Below, piece after piece: positions 31,464-50,624 of a stretch of DNA of 64,000 nucleotides. Each line of letters begins with the position of its first letter. Positions within the stretch are counted from its first letter, which is position 1. Source of the stretch: Candidatus Bathyarchaeota archaeon (GTDB lineage Archaea > Thermoproteota > Bathyarchaeia > TCS64 > PIYN01); NCBI GenBank assembly GCA_003601775.1, contig PIYN01000014.1, positions 10,479 to 74,478 on the forward strand. Direction: 5' to 3'. The notes below the pieces were generated by a model. The model had not been told where the DNA came from. It was given only the letters and a program-made list of their open reading frames with translations, and searched no databases. Both the position numbers and the translations under genes were made by a program.

Positions 31464-31565
31464 CGATGAAATATCTCCGGATGGGGTAATTAACGTTTTT
31501 GAGAAGCCGTTCCCCTCGATCCTTCTGCTGGGGCAAATTAAATATAGGGACAGGTCGAGTCTCTA

Positions 31566-32831
31566 ATGGGGTTTCTCGCCTTGAAGAGGGTTGTCGTCCC
31601 TAACCTCGAGTGGTATGGCGATCAGCCGCTTGAGCTGCTCTTCCCGGAGCGATGGGAGGTCACGAGGTGTAGGATGGAGGGGGAGGGGAAGCGGGGGCTC
31701 CGGGACGAGGAGATCAGGGCGGCGCTGGAGAACCCCGTGGGGACGAAGCCCCTCTCCCGGCTGGCGGAGGGGCATGAGGAGGTCGTCATCCTCTTCGACG
31801 ACATGACCCGACCCACCAAGACATACAGGGTCCTCCCCTTTATCCTCGAGACCCTGGAGAAGGCGGGGATACCAGATGAGAACGTCCGCCTCATCATGGC
31901 GACGGGGTCTCACGGCCCCCATGGCCGCCTCGACTTCGTGAAGAAGCTGGGGGAGGAGGTCGTCGAGCGCTATCCCGTCTATAATCATAACCCCTACGAC
32001 AACCTCGAGGACCTCGGGGAGACAAGTAGGGGGACGCCTGTGAAGGTCAATGCGGAGGTGATGGGGTGCGACCTGAAGATCGGGATCGGCTCGATCCTCT
32101 TCCACAGGCTCATGGGCTTCAGCGGCGGAGGGAAGATCATCATGCCCGGCGTAGCGGGGATCGAGACCATCCAGCACAACCATGGGGATGTCGGCGGCTT
32201 CGGGGCTGGGAGGAGACCCCATCCCTCCACGGGGTACCTGAGAAACGAGGGGAACGTGATGCGCCTGGACGCGGAGGAGGCCGCGAGGATGGCGGGCCTC
32301 GACTTCAAGGTCGATATGGTTATAAACCTGAGGCGGGAGCCCATAGCCCTCTTCGCAGGGGACTTCGTCGAGGAGCAGAGGCTCGGGGCGCAGAGGGCCT
32401 ACAGGGAGCACGCGACGGAGACGCCGAGGGAGATGGACATAGTCGTCGTGAACGCCTACGCCCGGGCGAACGAGCCCCACATCGCGATGTGGGCCGCCTA
32501 CACCTCCGTGAAGGAGGACGGAACGATCGTCCTCATCCCCAACGCCCCAGACGGCGAGATCAACCACTGGATCTTCGGGCGCCACGGGAAATGGCATGGG
32601 GGGCGGCTCTGGGGACCCAGGCCCAGAAGACCGCTTCAGAGGGGGAGGAGGCTGATCATATACTCGCCCTACAGGGAGCGGACCCTCGAGATGAAGTTCG
32701 GCCTCCCGGAACAGGTCACTTGGGTGAAGACCTGGGTGGAGGTCCTGGAGGAGTTAAGGAACAACTATCCGGGGCGCGCCAGGGTCGCGGTCTACCCCGA
32801 TGCGACGCTCGGCTATCCGCGGACCGCCTGA
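31566..32831 (+). CDS. LarA-family (nickel-pincer-dependent lactate racemase-like) protein
   Basis: 421 aa; DUF2088/LarA N-terminal domain pattern with conserved His clusters (ATGSHGPHG, IQHNHGD). Confidence 0.7.
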   Translation: MGFLALKRVVVPNLEWYGDQPLELLFPERWEVTRCRMEGEGKRGLRDEEIRAALENPVGTKPLSRLAEGHEEVVILFDDMTRPTKTYRVLPFILETLEKAGIPDENVRLIMATGSHGPHGRLDFVKKLGEEVVERYPVYNHNPYDNLEDLGETSRGTPVKVNAEVMGCDLKIGIGSILFHRLMGFSGGGKIIMPGVAGIETIQHNHGDVGGFGAGRRPHPSTGYLRNEGNVMRLDAEEAARMAGLDFKVDMVINLRREPIALFAGDFVEEQRLGAQRAYREHATETPREMDIVVVNAYARANEPHIAMWAAYTSVKEDGTIVLIPNAPDGEINHWIFGRHGKWHGGRLWGPRPRRPLQRGRRLIIYSPYRERTLEMKFGLPEQVTWVKTWVEVLEELRNNYPGRARVAVYPDATLGYPRTA

Positions 32832-32907
32832 GCCCCGGGGACCCCGCCTCCTCCGATCTTCGAGCGGAGGCAAATGAGATAAGTCAGGTCGTGGGATTCC
32901 TCCGTGA

Positions 32908-33844
32908 GATGCCTGTCTCAGAGGAGGCCCGGGCCCATTCAGGGGAGCACGTCCTCTTCCAATCCCTATCGAGGGTCTTCAGGGGGATGGAGTCCGTAAA
33001 GGTCGTCCTGGGCCCTGGGAAGAAGCAGCTCTTCGTGAGATACAGCGGTGAGATCGACTGGGATGGGGTGTTGGAGGCGGAGAAGCTGGCGAACAGGGTT
33101 ATACGGGAGGACAGGAGGATAAGGGTCGTCGTCGGCGACAGGGAGGAGGTGAGGAGAAGATACGGGAGGAGGCTGAGGGGGAGGTGGGACCTGATCAAGG
33201 ATAAGCAGATCAGGATCGTCGAGGTCGAGAACTTTGACTACGTGGCCTGTAAGGGGGAGCACGTCCAGAGGACCGGGGAGATCGGCTTCATCGTCGTAAA
33301 GGGCTTCAGGAAGACCAGGAGGGGGGAGTACGAGATCCAGTTCGAGGTCGGGGAGAGGGCCTGGGAATACGCCCTGGAGTCGAAGAGGCTCGCCATGAGA
33401 CTCGTCGAGATCCTCGGGACGACCCCGGAGATCGCTGAGGAGACGGCGAGGAACCTCAGGGAGGAGGCCCAGAGGCTGAGGAGGGGGATGAGGGAGGCGA
33501 GTAAGAGGGCCTTGGAGAACCTGAAATATGAGGAGGTGAGAGGAGTACGGGTCTACTCCGGGGTCTTCGAGGGCCTCGATAGGAGGGAGCTGGTGAAGAG
33601 GGCGGCGGACCTGAGGAAGGAGGGGAATACCGTTGTGGTCCTCGGGGACCTCTCAGGCTTCCTCGTCATGGGGAGGAGCGACGACCTCGGCTTCAACGTG
33701 ATCCCCCTACTGGAGAAGGGCTGCCGCTTTCTCGGCGGGAGGTGTGGGGGGAGGGAGAAACTCGCCTTTGGAGGAGGGTTTAAGTCCAAGGACCTGAGGG
33801 AGGCCGTCGACCTAATAAAGAGAGAACTGACTAAGATCCTATGA
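32908..33844 (+). CDS. alaX: AlaX-like alanyl-tRNA editing protein (editing domain plus Gly-rich DHHA1-like C-terminal domain)
   Basis: Zinc-binding HxxxH (HSGEHV) and CxxxH (CKGEHV) motifs of the AlaRS/ThrRS second-additional domain; C-terminal GGRCGGREKLAFGGG glycine motif. The start is uncertain: the frame is open far upstream, and the first ATG after the LarA stop was used. Confidence 0.6.
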
Positions 33845-35061
33845 AGGGGGAAAGGAGGTATTGGATGTTCAAGACATCGATAAGCGGTCTCAGCCCTGAT
33901 GAGATCTGGGAGCGCGTCCAGGGCTTCTCCTCCTGGATCGAGGTGGACCTGGACAGTATCGGGCATAACCTCTCCCAGATCAGGGAGCTCGTGGGCGACC
34001 GAGGGATCATCCCTGTGGTCAAGGCGAACGCCTACGGACACGGCCTCATACCCATCGTCAGGTTCCTCATGGAGGAGGGGGTGGAGACCTTCCTCGTGGC
34101 GAAGCTGGAGGAGGCCCTCGCGATCCGGGGGGCGGGGCTCAAGTGTGGCGTCTTGAACATGGACCCCCTCTTCTCCGACCGACAGTTCAGGACCGTTGTC
34201 TCAGAGGAGATCGCCCAGACGGTCTTCACGTTAGAGGCGGCTGAGAGGCTCTCGAGGGCCGCTGAGGAGGTAGGAAAGCCGGCGAGGGTCCACGTTAAGG
34301 TCGATACGGGGCTCGGGAGGGTCGGGGTGAGGTACGACAGGGCAGCGGAGTTCGTCAAGCGGATTAGCGGGCTACCCGGGCTGGTCGTCGAGGGGCTCTT
34401 CTCCACCTTCACGGAGGCGAAGCCCTTCGACGAAGTCCAGCTCCGGAGGTTCCTGGAGGTAGACGCCTCCCTGAGGCGGTCCGGCGTCGAGGTCCCCCTC
34501 AGGCATATGGCGAGCAGCGACGCCCTCCTCTCCCTCCCGGAGGCCTACCTGGATGCCGTGAGGCCGGGGATCATCCTCTACGGTTACTACCCCTCTGAGA
34601 GGGCTGAGGAGGAGAGGAGGGTGGAGCTGAGGCCCGCGTTGAGGCTTAAGGCCCGGGTCGAGCTCGTGAAGTGGTTGGAGGCGGGGGACTCTGTCTCCTA
34701 CCTCAGGGCTTACATGGCGGAGAGGAGGATGAGGGTGGCGACGATCCACGTTGGGTACTCCGACGGCTACCCTCACACCCTCTCCAACAAGGGCTCGATC
34801 CTACTGGGAGACCGAGAGGCAGAGATCATCGGCCGGGTCTCCGCCAACCACTTCGTCGTGAGCCTCGACGGCCTCGGCGACGTGGAGGAAGGAGATGAGG
34901 CCCTCCTTCTGGGCGGCGATGGGGAGACATCCCTGAGTAGAGTCGCCTGGAAGGCAGGAACGTCCACCTACAAGGTCCTGATCGGCCTCAGCCCGCTCCT
35001 GCCGAGGGTCTACCTCAAGGGGGGAGCCCCTGTGGACCTCTGGCCCCCTCCCCTGTGGTAG
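33841..35061 (+). CDS. alr: alanine racemase (PLP-dependent)
   Basis: PLP-lysine motif VVKANAYGHG and the two-domain racemase organisation; 406 aa. Start is possibly MFKTSI at 33865. Confidence 0.85.
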   Translation: MKGERRYWMFKTSISGLSPDEIWERVQGFSSWIEVDLDSIGHNLSQIRELVGDRGIIPVVKANAYGHGLIPIVRFLMEEGVETFLVAKLEEALAIRGAGLKCGVLNMDPLFSDRQFRTVVSEEIAQTVFTLEAAERLSRAAEEVGKPARVHVKVDTGLGRVGVRYDRAAEFVKRISGLPGLVVEGLFSTFTEAKPFDEVQLRRFLEVDASLRRSGVEVPLRHMASSDALLSLPEAYLDAVRPGIILYGYYPSERAEEERRVELRPALRLKARVELVKWLEAGDSVSYLRAYMAERRMRVATIHVGYSDGYPHTLSNKGSILLGDREAEIIGRVSANHFVVSLDGLGDVEEGDEALLLGGDGETSLSRVAWKAGTSTYKVLIGLSPLLPRVYLKGGAPVDLWPPPLW

Positions 35062-35150: not shown

Positions 35151-37565
35151 GTGGTGAGAGTTTTCTTGTGGCCGGCTCCCTTGGGATGGGCTCTGAGTCT
35201 CGTGATGCTCCTCTTCCCAGGCATCCTCCTGACAAGGCTGCTCTTCAGAGGGGGTGATGTCGGGGCTATAGATTTCTCCCTCTCCGCCCTCGTCCTGGGG
35301 TCCGCCCTGACCGTGTTGCCCACGGCCCTTCTGGGCCCCTATCTAAGGGGCTTCCCCTCCCTCTACGCCAGGGTCCTCCTGCCGGGCATCTGGCTGGCGA
35401 CCGCCTTCCTCTTCGCCCTCGCCGTCGCCAGAAGAAGGGTTGAGGTGAGGTGGGATGAGATCAAAAGAGGGGTCAGGGCAAAGGTCTTAGGCGCCCTTAG
35501 GTTCGGCGGCCTCGAAGGACTGATATTCTTCGCGGTCCCCCTCTTCGTCTTCCTCTACTCCGCCCTGAACATCTTCGTCGTTGACGCCGTGGGGTGGACG
35601 GCCTGCAGCTACTACATACCCCTCGCCCGGATGATCTACCAGAGTGACCTCATCCCTGCCTACGACCCCTACTATAACCTCGGGGAGCCCGTGGCGAAGC
35701 CCCCCCTCCCCTCCCTCCTCTACTCAACCCTCTTCTTCCAGACCTCCAGCACGGATCACCGGGTCCTCGCCCTCATCCCCCTCCTCCTCGGCCTCGGCTC
35801 CACCCTCTGCGTCTACGCCATAGCCCGCATAGCCCTCGATAGGCGGACCTCCACCCTCTCAGCCGTCGTCTTCACCGCGACCCCCCTCTTCATGAAGTGC
35901 TTCGCCTTCTCCTATCTCTACTCCGCCGACCTCTTCGCCCTCTTCTTCTTCTCCACGGCCCTCTATACATACCATCTCTCCCAGAGGAAGGGAGACCACA
36001 GGATGGCGGTCGTCTCCGGACTCTCCTCCTCCCTGGCCATCCTCTCCCGTTCCTACTGCCTCTACGTCCTCCTCCTAACCCTCCTCCTCATTCACGCCAT
36101 CCTCTCGGGGGAGAGGAGACAACAGGCGATCTTGGTGGGTTTTATCGCCCTCTCAGTAGGCGTCTCGGGTCTCCTCATCGGGGGTGGGGGACTCCCCCTC
36201 TTGGCCCTCGGCGTCCTCGTGATGGCGGGGGTGCTCCTCATCAACCGGGATGCGGCCATGGATGAGGGCGCCGGGGGTAAGAGGCTTCGATCGTTGCTCA
36301 TCGTCCTCGCGTTGGCCTCCCTCAGCCTCCCCTGGTATCTCCGCAACTTCCTCCTCTTCGGCGACCCCGTCTACCCTAACCTCGGACCAATCTTCCACAC
36401 GAGCCCCCTCTCAGACGACTTCGTGGGGGACCTCTTCCATGAGATCTCCAAGGTCTACTGGAGGCCAGCTGGGGAGTCCTCCCACGTCGGGAGCCTCCTG
36501 AATACCGCCCTGGTCCCGCTCCTCTCCTTCGACTTCGGGATCTTCCTCTTCCTCTTCAAGGTCTCCGGCCTCCTCTCCCTCATCCGAGGGAGGAGCCCCC
36601 TAAACACTCTCCTCTCCCCCTGGGCCGCCGTGTCCTACGTCACATGGCTCCTCCTCTTCAACTACTCGACGAACTACCTCATCCAAGTTCTACCCCTCCT
36701 CTCCATCCTCTGCGCCGTCGGGATGATGAAGATCTACGGCAGACTGGAGGATTTCGTCGGCCACCTCTTGGGGGAGGACAGGGAGCCCAGGGTCTTCGTC
36801 TTGACCACTGTCTTCTCCCTCTTCGGATACTACCTCCTCTACTACCTGGACCTCTGGGGTCTGCTACCCCAGGCCCTCTCATCCCTCTATGTAAGGGCCC
36901 TCTACCTCAGCCTCCCCCTCTTAGAGGGCCTCGCCCTCTCCCTCCTCCCCCTCCTCATCCTCCCCCCCGCCCTCCTCTCCTCCATAGTCAAGGGGATTTG
37001 GGGGCACCATCTCCACCTGGGGATCGATGAGAGAAAGAGGACCCTGGCCTCGGCGGCCCTCCTGGGAGGACTCCTCATCACCTTCAGCCTCTACATAGCG
37101 CCCAGGGGGATAGTCGGGGTCTTCAAGGAGGCGGCTATTGGGGGAGTCTTCTCCTGGGAGGAGGCCCAGGGGCTGGGTGCCTTCATCGAACGCGAGGTCC
37201 CTCCGGGGGAGGTCGTCGTCTCCCTCACTCCCGAGCCGATGAGGCTGCTCATGGATCACGAGGTCCTCTACCTCTTCACCCCTGGAGGGCTATACGGCCT
37301 CAAGGACCTCCTCTTGACCCAAGACGAGGAGACGATCGTGAAGACTCTGAGGGAGAGGGGTATCACCTACTTCATCGTCCCAGAGCCCACCCAGGGAGGC
37401 GACACGGGTATAACGACCTATAAGGCCCTGAAACAGGAGATGATCTACAAGGCCTACCTTTTCCTCACCCAGAGGTTCAAGATCTTCAACCTCCTCCAGC
37501 GGGAGGGGGGTCCCTTCAGGGAGGTCTTCTCAAACGGGTCCTACGCTGTATACCACCTCTCGTAG
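35151..37565 (+). CDS. large polytopic membrane protein, GT-C-fold glycosyltransferase candidate (ArnT/PMT-like), no AglB WWDYG motif
   Basis: 804 aa; more than 12 hydrophobic segments in the N-terminal about 550 aa, then a soluble C-terminal domain; first gene of the GT cluster. Confidence 0.55.
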   Translation: MVRVFLWPAPLGWALSLVMLLFPGILLTRLLFRGGDVGAIDFSLSALVLGSALTVLPTALLGPYLRGFPSLYARVLLPGIWLATAFLFALAVARRRVEVRWDEIKRGVRAKVLGALRFGGLEGLIFFAVPLFVFLYSALNIFVVDAVGWTACSYYIPLARMIYQSDLIPAYDPYYNLGEPVAKPPLPSLLYSTLFFQTSSTDHRVLALIPLLLGLGSTLCVYAIARIALDRRTSTLSAVVFTATPLFMKCFAFSYLYSADLFALFFFSTALYTYHLSQRKGDHRMAVVSGLSSSLAILSRSYCLYVLLLTLLLIHAILSGERRQQAILVGFIALSVGVSGLLIGGGGLPLLALGVLVMAGVLLINRDAAMDEGAGGKRLRSLLIVLALASLSLPWYLRNFLLFGDPVYPNLGPIFHTSPLSDDFVGDLFHEISKVYWRPAGESSHVGSLLNTALVPLLSFDFGIFLFLFKVSGLLSLIRGRSPLNTLLSPWAAVSYVTWLLLFNYSTNYLIQVLPLLSILCAVGMMKIYGRLEDFVGHLLGEDREPRVFVLTTVFSLFGYYLLYYLDLWGLLPQALSSLYVRALYLSLPLLEGLALSLLPLLILPPALLSSIVKGIWGHHLHLGIDERKRTLASAALLGGLLITFSLYIAPRGIVGVFKEAAIGGVFSWEEAQGLGAFIEREVPPGEVVVSLTPEPMRLLMDHEVLYLFTPGGLYGLKDLLLTQDEETIVKTLRERGITYFIVPEPTQGGDTGITTYKALKQEMIYKAYLFLTQRFKIFNLLQREGGPFREVFSNGSYAVYHLS

Positions 37566-37645
37566 GTGTCAAGGCTGGAGGGGGTTTAATTATTAAGGAA
37601 TTGAACTCCTTTAAAGAAGGGTTGTAGGGTCCTGAGGGTGCTGGG

Positions 37646-38734
37646 TTGAAGATCGTCTATGTGACGCCGAGGTATCGCCCCTACCGCGGCGGTATCGAGA
37701 GGGCCGTGGAGGAGGTCGCCGTGAGGCTCTCAGCCAGGGGATACAAGGTCCTCGTCGTCACCACGGACCCCTCGGGGCGACTGCCGAGGCGGGAGGTCCT
37801 GGAGGGCGTGGAGGTGAGGCGCCTCCGCGCCCCCAGCGACTCCTATTACCTCTCGCTCGGCCTCTACAGGGAGTTGGAGAGAAGTGGGGGCGATATCCTC
37901 CACGCCCACAGCTTCCATGCCCTCCCCTCCCTCGTAGCGGCACGGGCGAAGGGGAGCAGGAGACTCGTGGTCTCCCCCCACTACCACGGCCACGCCCACA
38001 CACCCTTCAGGGAGACACTCTTCCAGGTCTACAAGAGGACCGCCCTCAAGACCATCGTCTCAGCCTCCGACAGGATCCTCTGCGTCTCAGAGTATGAGCG
38101 CATGCTGGTCCAGAGGGACTTCCCAGAATCCGCCCCCAAGACTCTCGTCATACCCAATGGCATAAACATGGAGAGGCTGAGAGGGGTCAAGTGGCACCCA
38201 AGAGCTGATGGACTGAAGATCCTCTACGTCGGCCGGATCGAGGCCTACAAGAACCTGGACAAGGCGATAGAGGCGGTCAGGGTGCTCAGGGAGAGGGGAT
38301 GGGACGTGAGACTGACCATCGTGGGCCGAGGACCCCACAAGCCTCAGCTGAGGAGGATGGCTGAGAGGATCGGGGTGGACGAACTAATAGAGTGGAAGGA
38401 GGATCTGACGGAGGAGGAACTCTACGAGGAGTACTCCTCCTCCAAGGTCTTCCTCCTCCTCTCCACGGACGAGGCCTTCGGGATCGCAGCGGTGGAGGCC
38501 ATGACCATCGGCCTCCCAACAGTCCTCGCGAGGGCCGCGGCCCTATCCACCTACGTCGAGGAGGGCCTCGCCCTTGGCGTCGACCCTCCCTTCGACCCAG
38601 AGGCCGTGGCCGACAGGATCCTCGAGGCCTCCTCGGGTTGGACGCCAGACAAGCGGCGTATCCAACACCGCTTCCTCTCATGGGATGAGGTGGTGGATCG
38701 GTTGGAGGAGGTCTACCAAACCCTGAGGGGATGA
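37646..38734 (+). CDS. GT4 family glycosyltransferase (GT-B fold)
   Basis: 362 aa; N-terminal MKIVYVTPRY...GGIERAV, C-terminal E-x7-E region FGIAAVEAMTIGLPTV. Confidence 0.8.
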   Translation: MKIVYVTPRYRPYRGGIERAVEEVAVRLSARGYKVLVVTTDPSGRLPRREVLEGVEVRRLRAPSDSYYLSLGLYRELERSGGDILHAHSFHALPSLVAARAKGSRRLVVSPHYHGHAHTPFRETLFQVYKRTALKTIVSASDRILCVSEYERMLVQRDFPESAPKTLVIPNGINMERLRGVKWHPRADGLKILYVGRIEAYKNLDKAIEAVRVLRERGWDVRLTIVGRGPHKPQLRRMAERIGVDELIEWKEDLTEEELYEEYSSSKVFLLLSTDEAFGIAAVEAMTIGLPTVLARAAALSTYVEEGLALGVDPPFDPEAVADRILEASSGWTPDKRRIQHRFLSWDEVVDRLEEVYQTLRG

Positions 38735-38740
38735 CCCGCC

Positions 38741-40684
38741 TTGTCTCCCCTAACCCCCCTTGAGGCCCTGTACTTCTCCCTCCTCTTCTTCCTCTCCCTC
38801 CTCTCCCTCGGCCGAGCCCTGAGGATCCTCGTCCGTGGACTCCTTGGAGGGGGGTCCCTGGGAGATCATGGGTTCCTCGATTCCCTGGGGATCGATCTCT
38901 CCCTCGGGACAGCCCTCATACCCCTCCTCACCCTCCTCCTCACCTCCCTCGGCCACCTGCTGAACAGGACCTCAGTCTATCTGCTCCTCCTCTCCTCCCT
39001 CGCCCTGGTGCTGCTCCACACCCTTCGAGAGAGGGGGGGAGGAGATGGACTCCGCGGCCTCTCCAGAGAGCTCCCCCTCCTCTCTATCCTTGTCCTCTCC
39101 CTCCTCCTCAGGCTCATCCCCTCCCTCGGCCTCTACGTCCACGGCGGCGATGACCCGAAGCTCTACTCCCTCCTCACGCTCAGGATCCTGGAGGAGGGGG
39201 GGTACACCCAGTCCTGGGGGCGCTACACCCTCCCCGGGTGGAACATCGTGAGGGATTCCCACCTCTTCATGGAGGGCTTCGAGGCCCTCGCAGCCTTCTT
39301 CCACCTCCTCACGGGTGTGGCGGTCCCGAAGGTCGTCCTCCTCACCACGATGCTCTACAGCGGCCTCACGCCCCTCTCCCTCTACGTCCTCGCCAAGAAG
39401 CTATATAGGGCGGGGCGGACGGCGGCCTTCTCCTCCCTCCTCATCGGCGTCGTCTCCCCGACCCCCCTCCTCTTCGCCGAGTGGGGTGGACATGGGGAGA
39501 TCGTCGCAGCCTACTTCCTCCTCCCCGCAACTCTCTCCCTGATGCTGAACATCCTCAGAGGTGGGCGGGGCCGTGAGGACCCGGTGCTCGCTTCCGTCCT
39601 GATGGCCGGGATGCTCCTCACCCAGGTCCTCTCAGTCGTTTACCTCCTGGCCTTCCTCCTCCCCATCCTCCTCAGGGTTCTCTTGAGACGTGATGTAAGG
39701 AGCCTGGGCATCTGCCTCCTGCCCCTCGCAGCCTCCATCCTCCTCGTCTCCCCCCTCTACGTCCCAGCCCTCCTCGAGTCCCTGGGCTCAACTGAGGTAC
39801 TCCCGCCCGGCATCTTCGGCTGGGGGGCCGCCGAGGAGTACACCTTCCTCAAGAGGTACGACCTCCCACACTCCCTCTTGGACCTCCCCCTCCTCTGCGC
39901 CCACCTCTGGAGCCCCACCATCACCCTTCTGGGACTATTGGGCCTCCTCTCCTCGTGGAGAAGGAACAGGGCCCAAGGGTTCTACCTCGCTTCTTGGTGT
40001 TTCCTCCTCTTCCTCATCAACGAGAACAACCCCTTCGGCCTCTACCACATCAAGTTCCCCCTCTGGAACCTCCTCTTCCCGGAGCGCTTCGCCCTCGCCA
40101 TGGTTCTCCCCCTTACCCTCCTGGGAGGCCTCGGCCTCAATAGACTCCAAGAGGCCCTATCGGGTTTCAAGCCCCGCTGGAGGAGTCTCTCCCTCGTGGT
40201 GGTCCTCCTGCTCCTCCTCCCCGATGCTGCGTATCGATGCGTCCAGATGAGCCGTGTCCCCCTGAGGGCCTCGCCCGTGACGGGGGAGGATATGGAAGCA
40301 TTCCTCTGGATAGGAAATCACACGCCGGAGGACGCCCTCTTCTTCGTCTCAGATGCCGATGCAGGGCAGTGGATCCCCGTCTTCACGGGGAGGAGGGTCT
40401 TCCCCTTGGAGACGGTCATGAATAACCCGGAGATGGTGATCCTGGGGCGGAACCTGACCCGGCTGTCTCTCCAGACCCCCTCCGACCCGAGGATCTATGA
40501 CCTCCTGAGGGAGAACGGCATCGACTACATATACATCGGCGCAAAGGCCATACTCGACAAGGAGAAGTTCAACGAGACCCACGTCCAAGCCCTCCTGGAT
40601 ACCGGTAGGTTCCGGGTCGTCTACCCGGAGGGGGATCACCCCACCCCCTCACCCGTAACGATTTTAGAGGTCTCATCCCCTTGA
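38741..40684 (+). CDS. second large polytopic membrane protein, GT-C-fold glycosyltransferase candidate
   Basis: 647 aa; multiple TM segments with a GGDDP acidic loop motif after TM1 (...LYVHGGDDPKLYSLL...) and a C-terminal soluble domain; lacks the AglB WWDYG motif. Confidence 0.5.
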   Translation: MSPLTPLEALYFSLLFFLSLLSLGRALRILVRGLLGGGSLGDHGFLDSLGIDLSLGTALIPLLTLLLTSLGHLLNRTSVYLLLLSSLALVLLHTLRERGGGDGLRGLSRELPLLSILVLSLLLRLIPSLGLYVHGGDDPKLYSLLTLRILEEGGYTQSWGRYTLPGWNIVRDSHLFMEGFEALAAFFHLLTGVAVPKVVLLTTMLYSGLTPLSLYVLAKKLYRAGRTAAFSSLLIGVVSPTPLLFAEWGGHGEIVAAYFLLPATLSLMLNILRGGRGREDPVLASVLMAGMLLTQVLSVVYLLAFLLPILLRVLLRRDVRSLGICLLPLAASILLVSPLYVPALLESLGSTEVLPPGIFGWGAAEEYTFLKRYDLPHSLLDLPLLCAHLWSPTITLLGLLGLLSSWRRNRAQGFYLASWCFLLFLINENNPFGLYHIKFPLWNLLFPERFALAMVLPLTLLGGLGLNRLQEALSGFKPRWRSLSLVVVLLLLLPDAAYRCVQMSRVPLRASPVTGEDMEAFLWIGNHTPEDALFFVSDADAGQWIPVFTGRRVFPLETVMNNPEMVILGRNLTRLSLQTPSDPRIYDLLRENGIDYIYIGAKAILDKEKFNETHVQALLDTGRFRVVYPEGDHPTPSPVTILEVSSP

Positions 40685-40696
40685 GTTCCTTGAAAG

Positions 40697-41845
40697 TTGG
40701 TCGCCTTGAGGATCGCCCAAGTCGTCCCCTACTGCTCAGCCGCCTTCGGTGGAGGGTACGAATACGAACTCTCGAGGGCCCTCGTGAAGCTGGGTCACGA
40801 GGTCACAATCTTCACCTCAGACAGGACGCCCTACAGATATAGGTTGAGTGTCGACGAGGAGGAAGCTCACCACAAAGTCCGCATCCGGAGGTTCAGGGCC
40901 CTCCTCGACCTGAGGGAGCTCCCGGTCCCTCCATCCATGCTCCCGGGGCTCCTCGATGAGGACCTCGACGTTATACAGACGAGCGAGCCCTTCCAGCTCT
41001 GCTCCCTCTACGCCGCCCTCGCCTCGAGGAGCCGGGGAGTACCCTTGGTGGTGAGCCAGCATCTGTATTATAAGCCCTGGGACCCCCTCAAGAGGCTCGG
41101 CCTACGCCTCTCCGAGGCCCTCTACGGACGCTTTGTGCTGAGCACCGCCAAGCGGATCATCGCCATCTCCACGGCGGCGAGGTCCTACTTGAAGGAGAAG
41201 GGCGTGGAGGAGGGGAAGATCGAGGTCATCCCCATCGGGGTGGACGCCGACAGGTTCACCCCCACGGCCGAACCCTATGGGCCGTTGATGGAGGAGGCCG
41301 AGGGGAGGAAGGTGATCCTCTTCGTGGGGCGCCTCACAGGGTACAAGGGGGTTAAATACCTCCTCCAAGCCTTCAGCCGCCTGCTGAAGGAGTACAGGGA
41401 GGTGGTCCTCTGCATCAGGGGGGACGGCCCCGAGAGGCCCTATCTCCTCCAACTTGAATCAAAGCTGGATCTGAGGGAGAGGATCCTCTGGCTCGGTTAC
41501 GTGGCGAACAGGGATATGCCCTCCCTATACACCTCGTCAAACCTCTTCGTCCTCCCATCCCTCATCGAGCCCTTCGGCATCTCCGCCCTGGAGGCCATGG
41601 CCTCCGGGAGGCCCGTGGTCGCCACCCGGGTGGGGGGGCTGGCAGACCTGGTGGAGGAGGGCGTGAACGGTTACCTGGTCCCCCCATGCTCCATCGAGGG
41701 GCTGGAGGAGGCGATGCTGAGGATACTGGAGGACGAGGGGCTGGAGAGGAGGCTCGGCAGGGAGGGGAGGAGGAGGGCGGAGAGGTACTTCAGCTGGGAC
41801 GTCGTGGCCCGGCGAATACTATCCCTCTACGGGGAACTCCTCTGA
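40697..41845 (+). CDS. GT4 family glycosyltransferase (GT-B fold)
   Basis: 382 aa; FVGRLTGYKGVKYLL and E-x7-E motif EPFGISALEAMASGRPVV. Confidence 0.8.
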   Translation: MVALRIAQVVPYCSAAFGGGYEYELSRALVKLGHEVTIFTSDRTPYRYRLSVDEEEAHHKVRIRRFRALLDLRELPVPPSMLPGLLDEDLDVIQTSEPFQLCSLYAALASRSRGVPLVVSQHLYYKPWDPLKRLGLRLSEALYGRFVLSTAKRIIAISTAARSYLKEKGVEEGKIEVIPIGVDADRFTPTAEPYGPLMEEAEGRKVILFVGRLTGYKGVKYLLQAFSRLLKEYREVVLCIRGDGPERPYLLQLESKLDLRERILWLGYVANRDMPSLYTSSNLFVLPSLIEPFGISALEAMASGRPVVATRVGGLADLVEEGVNGYLVPPCSIEGLEEAMLRILEDEGLERRLGREGRRRAERYFSWDVVARRILSLYGELL

Positions 41846-41908
41846 GACCATGTATATGAATCCTTCATCACCAAAGAATATAAGTAACATAAAGTAAAAC
41901 TCTCTAAG

Positions 41909-42658
41909 TTGGGGGCCATGACGGAAGAAGAAGACGGCGATCTGCTAATTCTAATACCTGCCTATGATGAGCCCGAGGGACTAAAGATGGTCCTGGGAGA
42001 GATCATGGAGAACATCGACCCACATATCCTCGTGGTGAGCCGCCCCCCAGGCCATGTCCAAGGGAAGATCGCCGAGGGCTTCGGGGCCGTAGTCTTCGAC
42101 CAGTGGAGCAGGGGGAAGGGGGCGGCCCTGAAGGAGGCCTTGGACTATATCGAGAAGAACCATTATTCCCCCAAGTACGTAGCCCTGATAGACGCGGATT
42201 ACACCTACCCCGTGAGGTACATCGACGAGATGGTGGAGATCCTGAGGAAGAACCCCAAGGTGGGGATGGTCACGGGGAACCGCTTCCCCACCTGGATCAA
42301 GGGCTTCAGGGACACCCTCAAGGCCCTCCTAAACCCCTATTACATTGGGAATAGGATCCTCTCAGTGCTCCATAGGTTTCTTAACGGCGTGCGTATGAAG
42401 GATCCCTTCACCGGCCTCCGGACCATTAGATATGATCTGATCAGGGGCTGGAGGCCGAGGTCGAGAAGCTTTGATATCGAATGCGAACTCAACGATCTCA
42501 TATTGAATGAGAGAAGGTATGAGGTCGTTGAGATACCTATAGAGTACAGGGAGAGGGTTGGAAAGAAGAAGCTCGGGTTGAGGCATGGCTTTATCATCCT
42601 CCTCAGGATCTGCGCCCTGGCCCTGGATCGTCTCTTAGGGAAGAGGACTCGGAGATAG
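41909..42658 (+). CDS. GT2 family glycosyltransferase (dolichyl-phosphate sugar synthase-like, GT-A fold)
   Basis: 249 aa; LILIPAYDE...IDADYTYP (DxD) pattern of DPM1/DPG-synthase-like enzymes. Confidence 0.7.
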   Translation: MGAMTEEEDGDLLILIPAYDEPEGLKMVLGEIMENIDPHILVVSRPPGHVQGKIAEGFGAVVFDQWSRGKGAALKEALDYIEKNHYSPKYVALIDADYTYPVRYIDEMVEILRKNPKVGMVTGNRFPTWIKGFRDTLKALLNPYYIGNRILSVLHRFLNGVRMKDPFTGLRTIRYDLIRGWRPRSRSFDIECELNDLILNERRYEVVEIPIEYRERVGKKKLGLRHGFIILLRICALALDRLLGKRTRR

Positions 42659-42660
42659 GG

Positions 42661-43410
42661 ATGGATCTCTTCTTCCTCGTCCTCGCGAGGGACGGGCGGG
42701 GGGTTGAGGAGAAGATCGAGGAACTCAACGCCCTGGGCGTCCCCTATATCATTGTCTGTGGGGAGCGGCTCTCCACCCCGAATACGGTGTATCGAAAGCC
42801 TCTGGGCAAGTATGATGCGATAAACTTCGGCGCCCGGCTCATCGGGGAGGCGGAGATCATCTGCCTGAACGACGTGGACACGAAGATCCACAACTTCTCG
42901 GAGGCCTTAAAGCCCCTTCAGGATGAGGAGGTCGGATTGGTCTATTGCAGAGTGGTCGTGGAGGGGGGGCCGCAGCCGAGGTTCTACCGTCTCCTCGACG
43001 CCATAAGGTCGAGGGTCCCAGTAGCGGCGAGCGGGGAGCTGATGGTCCTCCGCAGGGAGCTCTTTGAGAGGTTGATCCCCCTCAAGCCCTGCAGGGCTGA
43101 GGATACCTATATCCTCTTCAAGACCCTCGAGCTGGGCTACAGGGCGGTCTTCTGCAGGGATTGCTGGGTGACGACGACCCGCACCGAGACCCTGGAGGAG
43201 GAGGTCGCCTATAAGCGGAGGACGGTGGGGGGGATCTACCAGGCCCTCTCCTACACTCGACCCCCTCCCTTGGTCAGGGTCTTCTACCTCCTCCTACCCC
43301 TCGCCGCCCCCCTGCTCCTCGCCCTGGGGAGGGTCGGGTACTACTGGACGAGAGGCATAATAGAGGGGGCGGCCTCCCTCCTCAGGAAGGAGGAGAGGGG
43401 GCGTTTCTGA
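42661..43410 (+). CDS. GT-A-like glycosyltransferase with C-terminal membrane anchor
   Basis: 249 aa; IICLNDVDTK (DxD-like) and a hydrophobic C-terminal segment LLLPLAAPLLLAL; start codon overlaps the preceding gene stop. Confidence 0.5.
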   Translation: MDLFFLVLARDGRGVEEKIEELNALGVPYIIVCGERLSTPNTVYRKPLGKYDAINFGARLIGEAEIICLNDVDTKIHNFSEALKPLQDEEVGLVYCRVVVEGGPQPRFYRLLDAIRSRVPVAASGELMVLRRELFERLIPLKPCRAEDTYILFKTLELGYRAVFCRDCWVTTTRTETLEEEVAYKRRTVGGIYQALSYTRPPPLVRVFYLLLPLAAPLLLALGRVGYYWTRGIIEGAASLLRKEERGRF

Positions 43411-43459: not shown

Positions 43460-43639
43460 ATGTGCGAGTTTAAGGTCTTCTTGGAGGGTAAGGAGATCTT
43501 CAGGGATGTCATCTACGCCAAGATGGTGGGCGAGGACTTGGTCTTGAGGGACGTGATGGGGGAGGTCCGGAGGTTCCCGAACTCGAGGATCGCTGAGATG
43601 GACGTAGCCTCTGCGAGACTCGTCATCGAGAGGGGTTGA
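43460..43639 (+). CDS. CooT-like small nickel-binding protein candidate (59 aa, begins MC)
   Basis: ORF below the 60-aa track cutoff, found by translating the gap after the GT cluster: MCEFKVFLEGKEIFRDVIYAKMVGEDLVLRDVMGEVRRFPNSRIAEMDVASARLVIERG. The N-terminal Met-Cys and the length match the CooT family. Confidence 0.4.
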   Translation: MCEFKVFLEGKEIFRDVIYAKMVGEDLVLRDVMGEVRRFPNSRIAEMDVASARLVIERG

Positions 43640-45968: not shown

Positions 45969-46550
45969 TTGGATGTCGAGGGGTGTGCTTTGGAGGAGAG
46001 ACTCATAGAGGTGAGGTTCCACGGGCGGGGAGGGCAGGGGGCGTGGACCGCCTCCCAACTCCTCGCCCTTGGAGGGCTGAAGGAGGGGAAGCACGTCCAG
46101 AGCTTCCCCACCTTTGGGCCGGAGAGGGCGGGGGCGCCGATCCAGGCCTTCACCCGCATAAGCGACAGGCCTATAAACCTCCACTCGAGGGTCTATGAGC
46201 CGGACATCGTGGTGGTCCTAGATCCAACCCTACTGGGACCCGGGGTCGCCGAGGGGGTGAGCCGGGGGACCCTCCTTGTGGTCAACACCGGCGAGGGCCC
46301 CCAAGAGGTGAGGAAGGTGCTCGGCCTGAAGGAGAACGAGGTCTGGGTGGTCGACGCCACGGAGCTCGCCATGAGGATCCTGGGACGCCCCATCACGAAC
46401 ACGGCGGTCCTCGGGGCCCTCCTGAGGGCGAGGGAGGTCATAAGCCTCGAGTCACTGCTGGAGGCCGTGAGGGAGAGGTTCCCCGGGAGGGTTGGAGAGC
46501 TGAACGTGAAGCTCGTCCAAGAGGCCTATAGGGAGGCGAGGAATAGATGA
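45969..46550 (+). CDS. porG: 2-oxoacid:ferredoxin oxidoreductase gamma subunit (cluster 2)
   Basis: VRFHGRGGQGAW N-terminus; paralogue of 26863..27423. Confidence 0.85.
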   Translation: MDVEGCALEERLIEVRFHGRGGQGAWTASQLLALGGLKEGKHVQSFPTFGPERAGAPIQAFTRISDRPINLHSRVYEPDIVVVLDPTLLGPGVAEGVSRGTLLVVNTGEGPQEVRKVLGLKENEVWVVDATELAMRILGRPITNTAVLGALLRAREVISLESLLEAVRERFPGRVGELNVKLVQEAYREARNR

Positions 46551-46831
46551 CGGGACAGAAGAGCGCACCCGGATGGAGGGAGCTGCCGCATGGGGCCGTT
46601 CCCTATAAGTCGAGCAGGGAGTATAAAACGGGGGACTGGGGGGTCCTCAAGCCCAAGATCGACTTTGGGAGGTGCACGAAATGCACCCTCTGCCATTTCT
46701 ACTGCCCCGAGGGAGCTATAAGGATGAGGGGGGACGGGTACCCTGAGGTCGACTATGACTTCTGTAAGGGCTGCGGCATCTGCGCCGCCGAGTGCCCCGT
46801 CAAGTGCATCGAGATGGTGAGGAGGGGCTGA
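46547..46831 (+). CDS. porD: 2-oxoacid:ferredoxin oxidoreductase delta subunit (cluster 2)
   Basis: CTKCTLCHFYCP and CKGCGICAAECP ferredoxin motifs. Confidence 0.85.
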   Translation: MTGQKSAPGWRELPHGAVPYKSSREYKTGDWGVLKPKIDFGRCTKCTLCHFYCPEGAIRMRGDGYPEVDYDFCKGCGICAAECPVKCIEMVRRG

Positions 46832-46832
46832 G

Positions 46833-48053: not shown

Positions 48054-48054
48054 G

Positions 48055-49837: not shown

Positions 49838-50158
49838 ACCTCTCCTCATCTTATCCTTCCCTTTCTCATACCTGAACGGAGATCCTAAAAGGGTGACTGA
49901 GGGGATCAAGGAAGGTAATAAATCAAATCTAGAGATGGTCTGTAGAAGAACCATCAAATGAGGGATAGACCCCCTAAAGTCATGAGGCGCTCTGTCACCC
50001 TTAAACGATAGGTCAAGGATTTTATTTTAATTGAATATTTGAAATTTGAGAAGAATTCAACGATATAAGTCGAACTAAGAATTTAAATGGTTAAATTTAT
50101 ATATCAAACACCCTCCTTAAGTTAGGATTGATAGGTTAAATAAAATAGGTGGATCTGG

Positions 50159-50335
50159 ATGGGAGAGGAAGAGAAGGAGGACTATACAGTCCCTGTGTAC
50201 ATCGGCCTGAAACACTCAATCGTCGTCGAGTTGGACAATATCGCCGCCGAGTGGGGAACTACAGTGAGCAGGGCTTGTCAGAGGATCATAACAGAGTACG
50301 TGAAGAACTGGGTTAGCGAAAAGGAGAAGAAATAG
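50159..50335 (+). CDS. ribbon-helix-helix (CopG/Arc-like) small DNA-binding protein candidate (58 aa)
   Basis: Sub-threshold ORF in the AT-rich spacer: MGEEEKEDYTVPVYIGLKHSIVVELDNIAAEWGTTVSRACQRIITEYVKNWVSEKEKK, showing a beta-strand then two helices characteristic of RHH proteins. Confidence 0.4.
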   Translation: MGEEEKEDYTVPVYIGLKHSIVVELDNIAAEWGTTVSRACQRIITEYVKNWVSEKEKK

Positions 50336-50341
50336 CATCAC

Positions 50342-50551
50342 TCATCGAGGATCATCCCTTTTTGCCGTTGTTCCAAATCGAAGTTTATAATACATCACAA
50401 GGATGAAGACGCCCACAAAAGAGAGAATTAAAGTGTATAATGCGACCATTGCGGGGCCGACTTCTTCAATCAATCTTCCCAAAAAATGGGCCGCGAAGGT
50501 GATAAGTACCATCAAAAGAGTTGCGATTATCATCTGTTTACGCGTTAACAT
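50342..50551 (-). CDS. small membrane protein (2 predicted TM helices, 69 aa)
   Basis: Hydrophobic segments IIATLLMVLITFAAHFL and ALYTLILSFVGVFILVMYY; AT-rich codon usage. Confidence 0.35.
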   Translation of the reverse strand: MLTRKQMIIATLLMVLITFAAHFLGRLIEEVGPAMVALYTLILSFVGVFILVMYYKLRFGTTAKRDDPR

Positions 50552-50624
50552 AGGGTCCCTTTGTTAGTGGACTTAACGGCCATATATTAAAATATTGATG
50601 AAATATATTGTTTCTTGACGGGGA

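What the first reader, a model, noticed from the sequence alone, without database searches (positions are those of the whole stretch)
35151..43410. Eight-kilobase glycosylation gene cluster with two large GT-C membrane enzymes lacking AglB signatures
Six consecutive same-strand genes: GT-C-like (804 aa), GT4, GT-C-like (647 aa), GT4, a DPM1-like GT2 (Dol-P-sugar synthase) and a membrane-anchored GT-A. Neither large polytopic protein has the WWDYG or DK motifs of the oligosaccharyltransferase AglB, but both have the multi-TM plus periplasmic-domain layout of GT-C transferases. The Dol-P-sugar synthase suggests a lipid-linked sugar donor. This looks like a self-contained pathway for an as-yet undefined surface glycan, or for S-layer or lipid glycosylation.
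Basis: partly seen in the sequence, partly recalled or inferred. Interest (0 to 1): 0.6.

Follow-up and report, generated by a model that had tools for sequence, protein, structure and literature searches.

The report
Archaeal glycan cluster with OST-like enzyme
A Bathyarchaeota genome fragment carries a compact sugar-attachment gene cluster; one of its two large membrane enzymes is predicted to fold like the universal N-glycosylation enzyme but lacks that enzyme's target-recognition motif, so it probably glycosylates something else.

Summary
No literal WWDYG occurs anywhere in the window.

The 804-aa protein (GT-C1) is a PMT_2-type GT-C with an AglB-like C-terminal domain. It has Thr150 where all 24 distant relatives have Asp.

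The conserved core is GT4–GT-C2–GT4–GT2. GT-C1 is separable from it, and gene 6 is absent from more distant relatives. In Chloroflexota, DUF6541 genes lie in operons with AglJ/ArnC-like GT2 and GT4 genes.

Most likely reading: a dolichol-phosphate-sugar-dependent glycosylation module acting outside the membrane on an acceptor that is not an N-X-S/T sequon. Donor and acceptor are unknown. No flippase or sugar-activation gene lies in the window.

Verdict: a new variant of a known kind, of moderate interest.

The parts
35151..37565 (+). GT-C1: an 804-aa polytopic membrane protein (NCBI aa). It has a PMT_2-type GT-C core, three extra N-terminal TM helices and a C-terminal alpha/beta domain.
   Evidence: Pfam PMT_2 at 38.5 bits. 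An HMM built only from 24 distant PMT_2/PMT relatives aligns residues 15-749 end to end at 270 bits. Only one 50%-identity cluster in 1.84e9 representatives scores below E 1e-30. The AlphaFold model failed for the TM part (pLDDT 39.6).
35592..35603 (+). GT-C1 'GWTA' (residues 148-151). Thr150 occupies the column of the loop-1 Asp that is invariant in the wider family.
   Evidence: This column is Asp in 24 of 24 distant relatives and Thr in all 6 full-length clade members. An independent HMM alignment pairs 'rgWDalhfYlP' with 'vGWTACSYYIP'.
35661..35690 (+). GT-C1 clade-specific loop motif YDPYYNLGEP (residues 171-180). It contains Asp172 and Glu179, candidate substitute acidic residues.
   Evidence: Nearly identical in all six full-length clade members; one has YDPYLNLGEP. 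Not conserved in the distant relatives.
37152..37562 (+). GT-C1 C-terminal soluble domain (residues 668-804), which resembles the AglB central-core unit. 'VVVSLTPEP' (688-696) lies where 'xxxSWWDYG' would.
37646..38734 (+). GT4a: a cytoplasmic GT-B glycosyltransferase of CAZy family GT4 type. Its stop codon lies 6 bp upstream of the GT-C2 start.
   Evidence: Glycos_transf_1 5e-29 and Glyco_transf_4 5e-27. There is no equivalog-level match; the best are EpsE, stp2 and Agl16, all far below cutoff. Conserved next to GT-C2 in L001, L002 and L006.
38741..40684 (+). GT-C2: a 647-aa membrane protein predicted to have the STT3/AglB fold. Its sequence family is DUF6541/PTPS_related.
39149..39154 (+). 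GT-C2 first-loop diacidic pair Asp137-Asp138, within 'GGDDPKLY'. Asp138 is the candidate catalytic or metal-binding Asp.
   Evidence: Asp138 is present in 78 of 78 family members, and this column was not used to find them. It follows the fourth TM helix, after a strongly basic loop, so it should face outward by the positive-inside rule (read directly from the sequence; model).
40352..40375 (+). GT-C2 'DADAGQWI' (residues 538-545): a degenerate counterpart of the OST motif WWDYGxWI. The Asp, Gly, Trp and Ile are kept and both Trp of 'WW' are lost.
   Evidence: phmmer against PDB gives human STT3A as best hit (E 0.1). It aligns EAFLWIGNHTPEDALFFVSDADAGQWI with [26 protein letters not shown]. The family consensus is GTDAGYWIP. 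This is the only D.G.W[IV] match in the window.
40283..40681 (+). GT-C2 C-terminal globular domain (residues about 515-647). It consists of a central-core unit only, as in the short AglB paralogs.
40697..41845 (+). GT4b: a second cytoplasmic GT4 glycosyltransferase, starting 12 bp after the GT-C2 stop.
   Evidence: Glycos_transf_1 8e-47. The closest solved relatives are generic GT4 enzymes: sucrose-phosphate-synthase-like, BshA, MshA and PimA. Conserved in L001 and L002.
41909..42658 (+). GT2: a small soluble GT-A enzyme of the polyprenyl-phosphate glycosyltransferase type (AglJ/DPM1/ArnC-like). It has a DAD motif at ORF residues 95-97. The likely start is at 41918.
   Evidence: NCBIfam AglJ 1.6e-27 (profile positions 2-218 of 293), Dol-P-hexose transferase 1e-17 and PpgS 1.5e-7, all below equivalog cutoffs. 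No TM segment. Conserved in L001 and L002.
42661..43410 (+). Gene 6: an accessory, strain-level GT2-like protein with one C-terminal TM segment. It is not part of the conserved core.
   Evidence: Only sub-threshold Glyco_trans_2_3 signals and a weak match to 6yv7, E 9e-4. Absent between GT2 and the CooT-like gene in L001 and L002. Present in three near-identical MAGs.

Best explanation
The locus is a lipid-phosphate-sugar-dependent glycosylation module that acts on the outer face of the membrane.

Shown here:
- The conserved core is GT4a - GT-C2 - GT4b - GT2.
- GT-C2 is predicted to have the STT3/AglB fold. It keeps the invariant first-loop Asp (D138) but has DADAG in place of WWDYG.
- The GT2 belongs to the AglJ/DPM1/ArnC type.
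- The same combination, an AglJ/ArnC-like GT2 plus GT4 genes flanking a DUF6541 GT-C, recurs in Chloroflexota operons.

Inferred:
- The GT2 loads a hexose from a nucleotide sugar onto dolichol phosphate at the cytoplasmic face.
- The two GT4 enzymes use nucleotide sugars in the cytoplasm, either to build the acceptor glycan or to extend the lipid-linked sugar.
- After flipping by a protein encoded elsewhere, GT-C2 uses its loop-1 Asp to transfer the lipid-linked sugar to an acceptor outside the cell.
- The two Trp that form the Ser/Thr (+2) pocket of oligosaccharyltransferases are gone, so the acceptor is probably not a canonical N-X-S/T sequon. It could be another protein site, a glycan or a lipid.
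- GT-C1 is a PMT_2-type GT-C with the same overall layout but Thr in place of the family's invariant Asp. It either works with a different acidic residue (D172 or E179 in the clade-specific YDPYYNLGEP loop) or is a non-catalytic partner.
For: - Motifs: DADAG aligns to WWDYG. D138 is present in 78 of 78 relatives.
- GT2 type.
- Conserved synteny of GT4-GT-C2-GT4-GT2 in relatives about 60% identical, despite rearrangements around it (first two genes in 37).
- Cross-phylum recurrence:
  - L043: AglJ-like GT2 (6.5e-35) - GT-C - GT4 - methyltransferase.
  - L023: GT4 - GT4 - AglJ-like GT2 (2.6e-32) - GT-C - GT4.
  - L029: GT2 - GT2 - GT4 - GT-C - GT4.
  - 14 of 81 loci have a same-strand GT4 directly abutting the GT-C.
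- GT-C1 relatives also sit beside an AglJ-like GT2 (L088) or inside glycan operons.
- Precedents: three-component systems of polyprenyl-P-sugar synthase, flippase and GT-C (PMC11127046, PMC7389260), and AglJ/AglD/AglS in Haloferax (PMC3871713).
- The WWD part of the motif forms the +2 Ser/Thr pocket (PMC3703281).
Against: - No biochemical data exist for any member of either GT-C family.
- Donor and acceptor are inferred only from gene neighbourhood.
- The GT2 scores far below the AglJ and Dol-P-hexose equivalog cutoffs and has no detectable sequence match to a solved structure.
- No flippase lies in the 64-kb window.
- Sequence profiles of the GT-C2 family do not reach STT3/AglB significantly. 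The OST likeness therefore rests on one AlphaFold model built from 11 sequences, plus one sub-significant alignment (E 0.1).
- GT4 and GT2 genes are common, so some of the adjacency could be background.
- Close relatives share ancestry, so their synteny is weak evidence of functional linkage.
Confidence: 0.55

Rival explanations
1. GT-C2 is a true en-bloc oligosaccharyltransferase or ligase. In this reading the AglJ-like GT2 initiates a Dol-P-linked glycan, as AglJ does in Haloferax. The two GT4 enzymes extend it. After flipping, GT-C2 transfers the whole oligosaccharide to a protein or lipid acceptor that it recognises without the WWD pocket. GT-C1 then adds or helps add a further sugar, in an AglS-like role.
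For: - The closest folds are OST catalytic subunits, and the C-terminal domain is the AglB core unit.
- The gene content mirrors both the pgl locus (from memory) and the Haloferax agl locus, where AglJ charges Dol-P and AglG/I/E extend the same lipid before AglB transfers it (PMC3871713).
- Operons with several GT4 and GT2 genes around a single GT-C look like glycan assembly plus one transfer step.
Against: - DPY19 uses Dol-P-mannose, a single-sugar donor, yet scores almost as well as STT3 in Foldseek (2e-8). Fold therefore does not decide the donor type.
- The second DXD and EL5 motifs of OSTs could not be located, and H251/E253 are not conserved outside the bathyarchaeal clade.
- WW is lost.
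- The family is mostly in Chloroflexota, where N-glycosylation is not known (own knowledge).
Confidence: 0.25
2. The cluster makes a membrane glycolipid or lipoglycan, by analogy with mycobacterial PIM/LM synthesis. There, GT4 enzymes PimA and PimB act inside the cell, the GT2 enzyme Ppm1 makes polyprenyl-P-mannose, and GT-C enzymes PimE and Mpt act outside. The acceptor would be a lipid, not a protein.
For: - The gene content matches: two GT4, one polyprenyl-P-sugar-synthase-type GT2 and two GT-C.
- PimA and PimB are among the solved relatives of GT4b.
- PimE and AftA/AftB/AftD appear among the structural matches of GT-C2.
- Loss of the peptide +2 pocket fits a non-peptide acceptor.
Against: - The GT4 similarity is generic.
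- No lipid-anchor synthesis genes lie nearby.
Confidence: 0.12
3. GT-C2 is simply this lineage's ordinary N-oligosaccharyltransferase: a highly diverged AglB that still recognises N-X-S/T.
For: It has AglB-like fold and size, close to the short AglB paralogs, which consist of a core unit only (PMC3703281). No canonical AglB lies in the window.
Against: - The Trp-Trp of WWDYG that forms the sequon pocket is absent in all 78 relatives.
- There is no Pfam STT3 match.
- The nearest relatives outside the clade are bacterial Chloroflexota.
- The window is only 64 kb of the genome, so a normal AglB could lie elsewhere.
Confidence: 0.05

Closest known systems
AglB/STT3/PglB oligosaccharyltransferase catalytic subunits (CAZy GT66), especially the short A. 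fulgidus paralogs AglB-S1 and AglB-S2
   Different: WW of WWDYG is replaced by D-A (G-T in the wider family). No Pfam STT3 match exists, and the family profile finds no OST in PDB. There are three extra N-terminal TM helices. The second DXD, TIXE/SVSE and DK/MI motifs were not identified. The family is centred in Chloroflexota.
GT-C enzymes that use polyprenyl-phosphate monosaccharides: DPY19 C-mannosyltransferase, ArnT, PMT1/2/4 and ALG9/ALG12
   Different: There is no significant sequence match to any of them. GT-C1 lacks the loop-1 Asp that these enzymes need. The C-terminal domains resemble the AglB core unit rather than the MIR or TPR domains of PMT and TMTC.
Three-component extracytoplasmic glycosylation systems (GtrA/GtrB/Gtr*, CsbB/GtcA/YfhO, polyprenyl-phosphoribose systems) and the S. 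mutans Pgf operon (PgfS, PgfM1, PgfE, PgfM2)
   Same: The logic is the same: a cytoplasmic GT2 makes a lipid-phosphate sugar and a GT-C uses it outside the cell (PMC11127046, PMC7389260). Pgf likewise pairs one GT2 with two large membrane proteins (PMC5856776).
   Different: No flippase gene lies in or near the cluster. Two GT4 genes are interleaved with the GT-C. The carrier would be dolichol phosphate in an archaeon. The GT2 lacks the TM anchor of GtrB-type enzymes.
Haloferax volcanii Agl pathway (AglJ, AglG/I/E, AglB, AglD, AglR, AglS)
   Same: The Agl pathway has an AglJ-type GT2 that charges Dol-P with hexose, soluble GTs that extend it, one GT-C that transfers it (AglB) and a second PMT-like GT-C that adds a sugar from Dol-P-mannose outside the cell (AglS) (PMC3871713, PMC4973528). 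The window has one gene of each kind.
   Different: All matches are below equivalog level. The transferase lacks WWDYG. There is no AglR-like flippase and there are no sugar-processing genes. AglS itself could not be compared, because no AglS sequence was available to the tools.
PIG-U / GAB1, the non-catalytic GT-C-fold subunit of GPI transamidase
   Different: No specific similarity of GT-C1 to PIG-U was shown. GT-C1's external loops are very strongly conserved, which would also fit an active enzyme with a relocated catalytic residue.

Membership tests
STT3/AglB/PglB oligosaccharyltransferase (GT66) | N-terminal multi-spanning TM domain plus a C-terminal globular domain containing the central-core unit | tested here: met
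STT3/AglB/PglB oligosaccharyltransferase (GT66) | WWDYG motif (the Ser/Thr +2 pocket) at the start of the C-terminal domain | tested here: not met
   GT-C2 has DADAG at the aligned position, and the family consensus is GTDAG. GT-C1 has SLTPE there. No WWDYG-like string occurs in the window.
STT3/AglB/PglB oligosaccharyltransferase (GT66) | First diacidic (DXD-type) motif in external loop 1 | tested here: met
   GT-C2 has D137-D138, and D138 is present in 78 of 78 relatives. For GT-C1 the equivalent family Asp is Thr150, so the feature is not met there.
STT3/AglB/PglB oligosaccharyltransferase (GT66) | Second DXD motif (EL2), TIXE/SVSE motif (EL5) and DK/MI motif | tested here: inconclusive
   A disordered loop at 350-381 lies where EL5 would be. 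H251 and E253 are conserved only within the bathyarchaeal clade. Model coordinates could not be superposed residue by residue with these tools.
STT3/AglB/PglB oligosaccharyltransferase (GT66) | Sequence-profile membership (Pfam STT3, PF02516) | tested here: not met
   GT-C2 has no STT3 hit. A GT-C1 fragment scores 20.8 bits against a cutoff of 24.5. Profiles A2 and A5 find no OST in PDB.
Pfam DUF6541 (PF20176) / PTPS_related (PF10131), GT-C clan CL0111, function unknown | HMM score above the gathering threshold | tested here: met
   GT-C2: PTPS_related 28.6 bits against 26.4; DUF6541 38.7 bits against 29 on residues about 105-318. Five of 11 relatives hit DUF6541, down to 2.9e-23. Clan membership of PTPS_related is stated in PMC7801869.
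PMT_2 / ArnT-PMT-like GT-C (Pfam PF13231; CAZy GT39/GT83-like) | HMM score above the gathering threshold over the TM core | tested here: met
   GT-C1 scores 38.5 bits against 26.1. Its distant relatives hit PMT_2 or PMT. One is named 'glycosyltransferase family 39 protein' by NCBI.
PMT_2 / ArnT-PMT-like GT-C (Pfam PF13231; CAZy GT39/GT83-like) | Conserved Asp at the start of external loop 1 (catalytic in ArnT, PMT, ALG6 and PglB, from the published structures; own knowledge) | tested here: not met
   Thr150 in all six clade members against Asp in 24 of 24 distant relatives.
Polyprenyl-phosphate glycosyltransferase GT2 (DPM1 / AglJ / GtrB / ArnC type) | GT-A fold with DXD, and best similarity to polyprenyl-phosphate-sugar synthases | tested here: met
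   Glycos_transf_2 at 26.9 bits against 23.3. DAD motif at ORF residues 95-97. The top three NCBIfam hits are AglJ, Dol-P-hexose transferase and PpgS.
Polyprenyl-phosphate glycosyltransferase GT2 (DPM1 / AglJ / GtrB / ArnC type) | Equivalog-level match to a characterised member, and a membrane anchor as in AglJ and GtrB | tested here: not met
   96.7 bits against the AglJ cutoff of 325, and 63.9 against 375. No TM segment. No sequence hit in PDB. Human DPM1 also lacks a TM anchor (own knowledge).
Three-component extracytoplasmic glycosylation system | A dedicated flippase (GtrA/SMR, MATE or Wzx type) encoded with the GT2 and the GT-C | tested here: not met
   The only ORFs in the window with three or more hydrophobic segments are GT-C1, GT-C2, an M48 peptidase and a fused ABC permease with EAA motifs. 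The flanking genes are housekeeping.
Haloferax-type AglS (Dol-P-mannose mannosyltransferase) | Sequence relationship of GT-C1 to AglS | not testable with these tools
   No AglS sequence was available. The literature says only that AglS is distantly PMT-like (PMC4973528).

The most novel reading that the evidence does not exclude
DUF6541-type proteins such as GT-C2 are a previously unrecognised sister family of the STT3/AglB oligosaccharyltransferases, spread through Chloroflexota, Bathyarchaeia and at least one Asgard lineage (Sifarchaeota). They would keep the OST scaffold and catalytic Asp but have swapped the sequon pocket, and so carry out a new kind of protein or envelope glycosylation. 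In the bathyarchaeal version, the Asp-less GT-C1 would be a catalytically dead GT-C-fold partner, in the manner of PIG-U, that presents the substrate or lipid.
Probability: 0.15. Interest if true: 0.8.

Novelty: new variant of a known kind. Interest (0 to 1): 0.55.

Why it matters
Oligosaccharyltransferases are defined by WWDYG, and surveys of N-glycosylation look for that motif. If a widespread family has the OST fold, an invariant catalytic Asp and a remodelled acceptor pocket, and sits in conserved GT2/GT4 operons in both Bacteria and Archaea, it would point to an unexplored route of surface glycosylation. That would be most relevant in uncultured, environmentally abundant groups such as Bathyarchaeia and Anaerolineae.

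It would also give a natural experiment on how the OST acceptor site evolves. The Asp-to-Thr change in GT-C1 offers a test case for non-catalytic GT-C proteins.

In practice, both proteins are currently 'hypothetical protein' in GenBank and could be re-annotated as GT-C family proteins.

Tried and rejected
- **Sequence searches of both large proteins against PDB.** The close-family profiles A1 and A2 found nothing useful. The wider GT-C2 family profile A5 found only a spurious FliQ match. The wider GT-C1 profile A3 gave one marginal hit, to 3vu0.
- **afdb50 fold search.** This library was not available.
- **Profile comparison of GT-C1 with GT-C2.** hhalign probability was 4.6% (E 0.009), with the same order of elements. 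This is suggestive of a shared layout but is not proof of paralogy. Comparison of GT-C1 with the first of the two Sifarchaeum membrane proteins showed no relationship.
- **Exact-sequence lookup of the window's own contig.** It returned nothing, so the rest of this MAG could not be scanned for a canonical AglB or a flippase.
- **Context of distant GT-C2 homologues P0016 and P0018.** Uninformative.
- **GT2 against PDB, alone and as a three-sequence profile.** No real hit.
- **tRNA and Rfam scans of the window.** Empty.
- **Rejected: the cluster is an AglB-free artefact or non-coding.** GC3, conservation and database presence all argue for real genes.
- **Rejected: gene 6 belongs to the core.** It is absent in L001 and L002.
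- **Rejected: alanine racemase is part of the pathway.** It is adjacent in several relatives, but there is no functional evidence, and it is not immediately upstream of GT-C1 in L002, where the contig ends close by.

Full report
**1. What is there**

The window is a high-GC (61%) fragment of a Candidatus Bathyarchaeota MAG. The 804-aa product is 100% identical to NCBI RJS89386.1, locus tag CW700_04465. Their third-codon-position GC is 0.75-0.86, which marks real coding sequence.

The spacing suggests sub-units:
- 80 bp between gene 1 and gene 2.
- 6 bp and 12 bp around gene 3.
- 63 bp of AT-rich, TATA-like sequence before gene 5.
- 2 bp before gene 6.

The flanking genes are housekeeping. Upstream are an AlaX-like gene, alanine racemase, aminotransferases and 2-oxoacid:ferredoxin oxidoreductase. 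Downstream are a CooT-like gene, TatD, OMP decarboxylase and a second oxidoreductase set. The window contains no AglB, no flippase-like polytopic protein and no sugar-nucleotide genes.

**2. The soluble enzymes**

Genes 2 and 4 are clear GT4-type GT-B enzymes. Neither has an equivalog-level assignment. Their closest solved relatives are generic: sucrose-phosphate-synthase-like, BshA, MshA and PimA.

Gene 5 is a small GT2 with a DAD motif and no TM segment. Its three best NCBIfam matches are all polyprenyl-phosphate glycosyltransferases: AglJ at 1.6e-27, haloarchaeal Dol-P-hexose transferase at 1e-17, and PpgS. All are far below the curated cutoffs, and no solved structure is detectable by sequence. 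'DPM1/AglJ-like' is therefore reasonable as a class but not as an orthologue.

Gene 6 has only sub-threshold GT2 signals, a weak match to the GT2 chain 6yv7 and one C-terminal hydrophobic segment.

**3. GT-C2 (647 aa)**

- **Sequence family.** It belongs to the uncharacterised families PTPS_related and DUF6541. PTPS_related is listed in the Pfam GT-C clan with unknown function (PMC7801869).
- **The WWDYG position.** The best PDB sequence hit of this domain is human STT3A. At E 0.1 the hit is not significant alone. It aligns EAFLWIGNHTPEDALFFVS-DADAG-QWI with [26 protein letters not shown]. The WWDYG site is thus present but degenerate: the Asp and Gly are kept, and a Trp-Ile pair like that of archaeal WWDYGxWI follows, while both Trp of 'WW' are lost. 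The Trp-Trp-Asp part forms the pocket for the +2 Ser/Thr of the sequon (PMC3703281). Canonical sequon recognition is therefore unlikely.
- **Catalytic loop.** After the fourth TM helix, and after a strongly basic loop, comes GGDDPKLY. By the positive-inside rule this loop faces outward.

**4. The GT-C2 family**

A scan of 185,579 species-representative genomes found no close relative. It did find 80 loci with relatives at 21-39% identity over the best aligned segment. The best is in the Asgard archaeon Ca. Sifarchaeum, at 28%, where the gene lies in tandem with a second large membrane protein that has a related C-terminal domain. Nearly all the others are Chloroflexota: Anaerolineae, Caldilineaceae and Dehalococcoidia.

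Across 78 members, R124, D138, P242, W248, W419, P457, D517, W523 and R551 are invariant or nearly so. None of these columns was used for the search. D540, G542, W544 and I545 are also invariant, but they were part of the search pattern.

Neighbourhoods are informative:
- 14 of 81 loci have a same-strand GT4 directly abutting the GT-C, and 26 have one within 3 kb.
- Three operons examined in detail read GT2-GT2-GT4-[GT-C]-GT4, GT2-[GT-C]-GT4-methyltransferase, and GT4-GT4-GT2-[GT-C]-GT4.
- In two of these three, the GT2 immediately upstream is again AglJ/PpgS/ArnC-like, at 6.5e-35 and 2.6e-32 over the whole AglJ profile.

The window's GT4-GT-C2-GT4-GT2 is therefore the archaeal version of a module conserved across domains.

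**5. GT-C1 (804 aa)**

- **Rarity.** Two searches of 5.8 billion proteins found only eight relatives, all close (59-63% identical) and bathyarchaeal where named. An exhaustive HMM search of 1.84 billion representatives found one cluster below E 1e-30 and 107 below 1e-3.
- **Wider family.** The distant hits are PMT_2/PMT proteins. One is from Heimdallarchaeota and is named a GT39-family protein.
- **Architecture.** An HMM built only from 24 of these distant proteins aligns GT-C1 from residue 15 to 749 (270 bits). They therefore share one architecture: three N-terminal helices, a basic cytoplasmic loop, the GT-C core and a C-terminal domain.
- **The lost Asp.** In that alignment, and in the MAFFT alignment, the family's invariant loop-1 Asp (consensus rGWDAxxxYxP) is Thr150 in all six full-length clade members. 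All 24 distant relatives have Asp. The clade instead has a conserved YDPYYNLGEP loop and many other conserved external-loop residues.
- **Conclusion.** GT-C1 has the same general build as GT-C2 but is neither a demonstrable OST nor a demonstrably active GT-C.
- **Context of relatives.** Those with the Asp intact lie next to an AglJ-like GT2 and a UDP-sugar dehydrogenase (L088), or inside large glycan operons.

**6. What is the unit?**

GT-C1 and GT-C2 homologues co-occur on every sufficiently long contig, judged by matching contig lengths and by the loci. In L001 the order is the same as in the window, minus gene 6. In L002 and L006, two or three opposite-strand genes (an unknown protein, an M20 peptidase and, in L006, an amino-acid kinase) separate GT-C1 from the block that begins GT4-GT-C2. 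That block is complete (GT4-GT-C2-GT4-GT2) in L001 and L002; in L006 the contig ends inside GT-C2. Gene 6 is found only in near-identical MAGs. The core is therefore four genes, GT-C1 is a loosely linked fifth, and gene 6 is a strain-level accessory.

**7. Mechanism**

*Shown:*
- The predicted fold of GT-C2.
- The motif substitutions in both large proteins.
- The class of the GT2.
- The conserved gene module.

*Inferred, by analogy with three-component systems and with Haloferax AglJ/AglD/AglS (PMC11127046, PMC7389260, PMC3871713):*
- The GT2 makes Dol-P-hexose.
- The GT4 enzymes work in the cytoplasm on the acceptor or on the lipid-linked glycan.
- A flippase encoded elsewhere moves the lipid-linked sugar across the membrane.
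- GT-C2 transfers it to a non-sequon acceptor outside the cell.

The main rival is en-bloc oligosaccharide transfer, which the OST-like fold and the pgl/agl-like gene content favour. Fold cannot decide between the two, because DPY19, which uses a Dol-P-mannose donor, scores almost as well as STT3. A PIM/LM-like lipoglycan pathway and a plain diverged AglB are less likely.

**8. Comparison and novelty**

The cluster works like known lipid-linked extracytoplasmic glycosylation systems. It fails the membership tests for GT66: no WWDYG and no STT3 profile match. GT-C1 also fails the active-site test for its own PMT_2-type family. Both large proteins are 'hypothetical protein' in GenBank. A full-text search found no paper on DUF6541, and only a passing listing of PTPS_related as a family of unknown function. 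I rate it a new variant of a known kind. It is interesting mainly because an OST-fold family with a remodelled acceptor pocket appears widespread and unstudied. Everything here is computational, and the key structural inference rests on one model.

Noticed in passing
window 33841-35061 (+), with the upstream ORF ending at 33844: A full-length alanine racemase (Ala_racemase_N and _C, 1.8e-59) sits in an archaeon, overlapping by 4 bp an AlaX-like gene (tRNA_SAD plus DHHA1). It lies immediately upstream of GT-C1. The trio AlaX-like, racemase, GT-C1 is also present in L001, L006 and L007. In L002 no racemase lies immediately upstream of GT-C1, though the contig ends about 1.6 kb away. A racemase next to an alanyl-tRNA-editing-type protein suggests D-alanine handling, but no link to the glycan cluster was shown.
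   Followed up: partly
window 43460-43639 (+): A 59-aa CooT-like protein (nickel-binding family), highly conserved with L001 and L002. It marks the downstream boundary of the cluster, and gene 6 is inserted between it and the GT2 only in this lineage.
   Followed up: partly
window 50001-52000 (GC 0.474 against 0.61 overall); gene at 50625-52082 (+): A sharp low-GC stretch contains a 4-TM M48-family peptidase gene, preceded by about 800 bp with no large ORF. This may be foreign or regulatory DNA.
   Followed up: no
window 26863-29815 (+) and 45969-49026 (+): Two separate gene sets for 2-oxoacid:ferredoxin oxidoreductase (POR gamma, POR_N/PFOR_II and TPP-binding domains) flank the glycan cluster. 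In the upstream set, alpha and beta are fused into one 698-aa protein.
   Followed up: no
window 52532-53671 (+) and 55114-56286 (+): Two paralogous saccharopine-dehydrogenase-family genes lie about 1.4 kb apart, separated by a 233-aa ORF (54331-55032) with no family match.
   Followed up: no
window 60213-61940 (-): A 575-aa internally duplicated ABC-transporter permease, with two 'EAARTLGAPP' EAA motifs (a fused two-domain permease). It is the only other large polytopic protein in the window and is not a flippase type.
   Followed up: partly
L008 4112-6145 and 6168-8174 (Ca. Sifarchaeum marinoarchaea); also L079 and L027 (Anaerolineae): Large polytopic membrane-protein genes occur as tandem pairs in other lineages. 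In the Asgard locus the two share a related C-terminal domain (BLASTP 9e-8), but only the second has the DAGQWI motif. That locus also carries a Ras-family small GTPase gene. L079 and L027 each hold two tandem DUF6541-type genes.
   Followed up: partly
window 15171-16619 (-), 5574-6560 (-), 31563-32597 (-): Sizeable ORFs (482, 328 and 344 aa) with no Pfam match. The last overlaps the 5' extension of the AlaX-like ORF, and either call may be spurious. The relative in L001 has a 309-aa AlaX-like gene, so the 592-aa ORF at 32066-33844 is probably over-extended.
   Followed up: no
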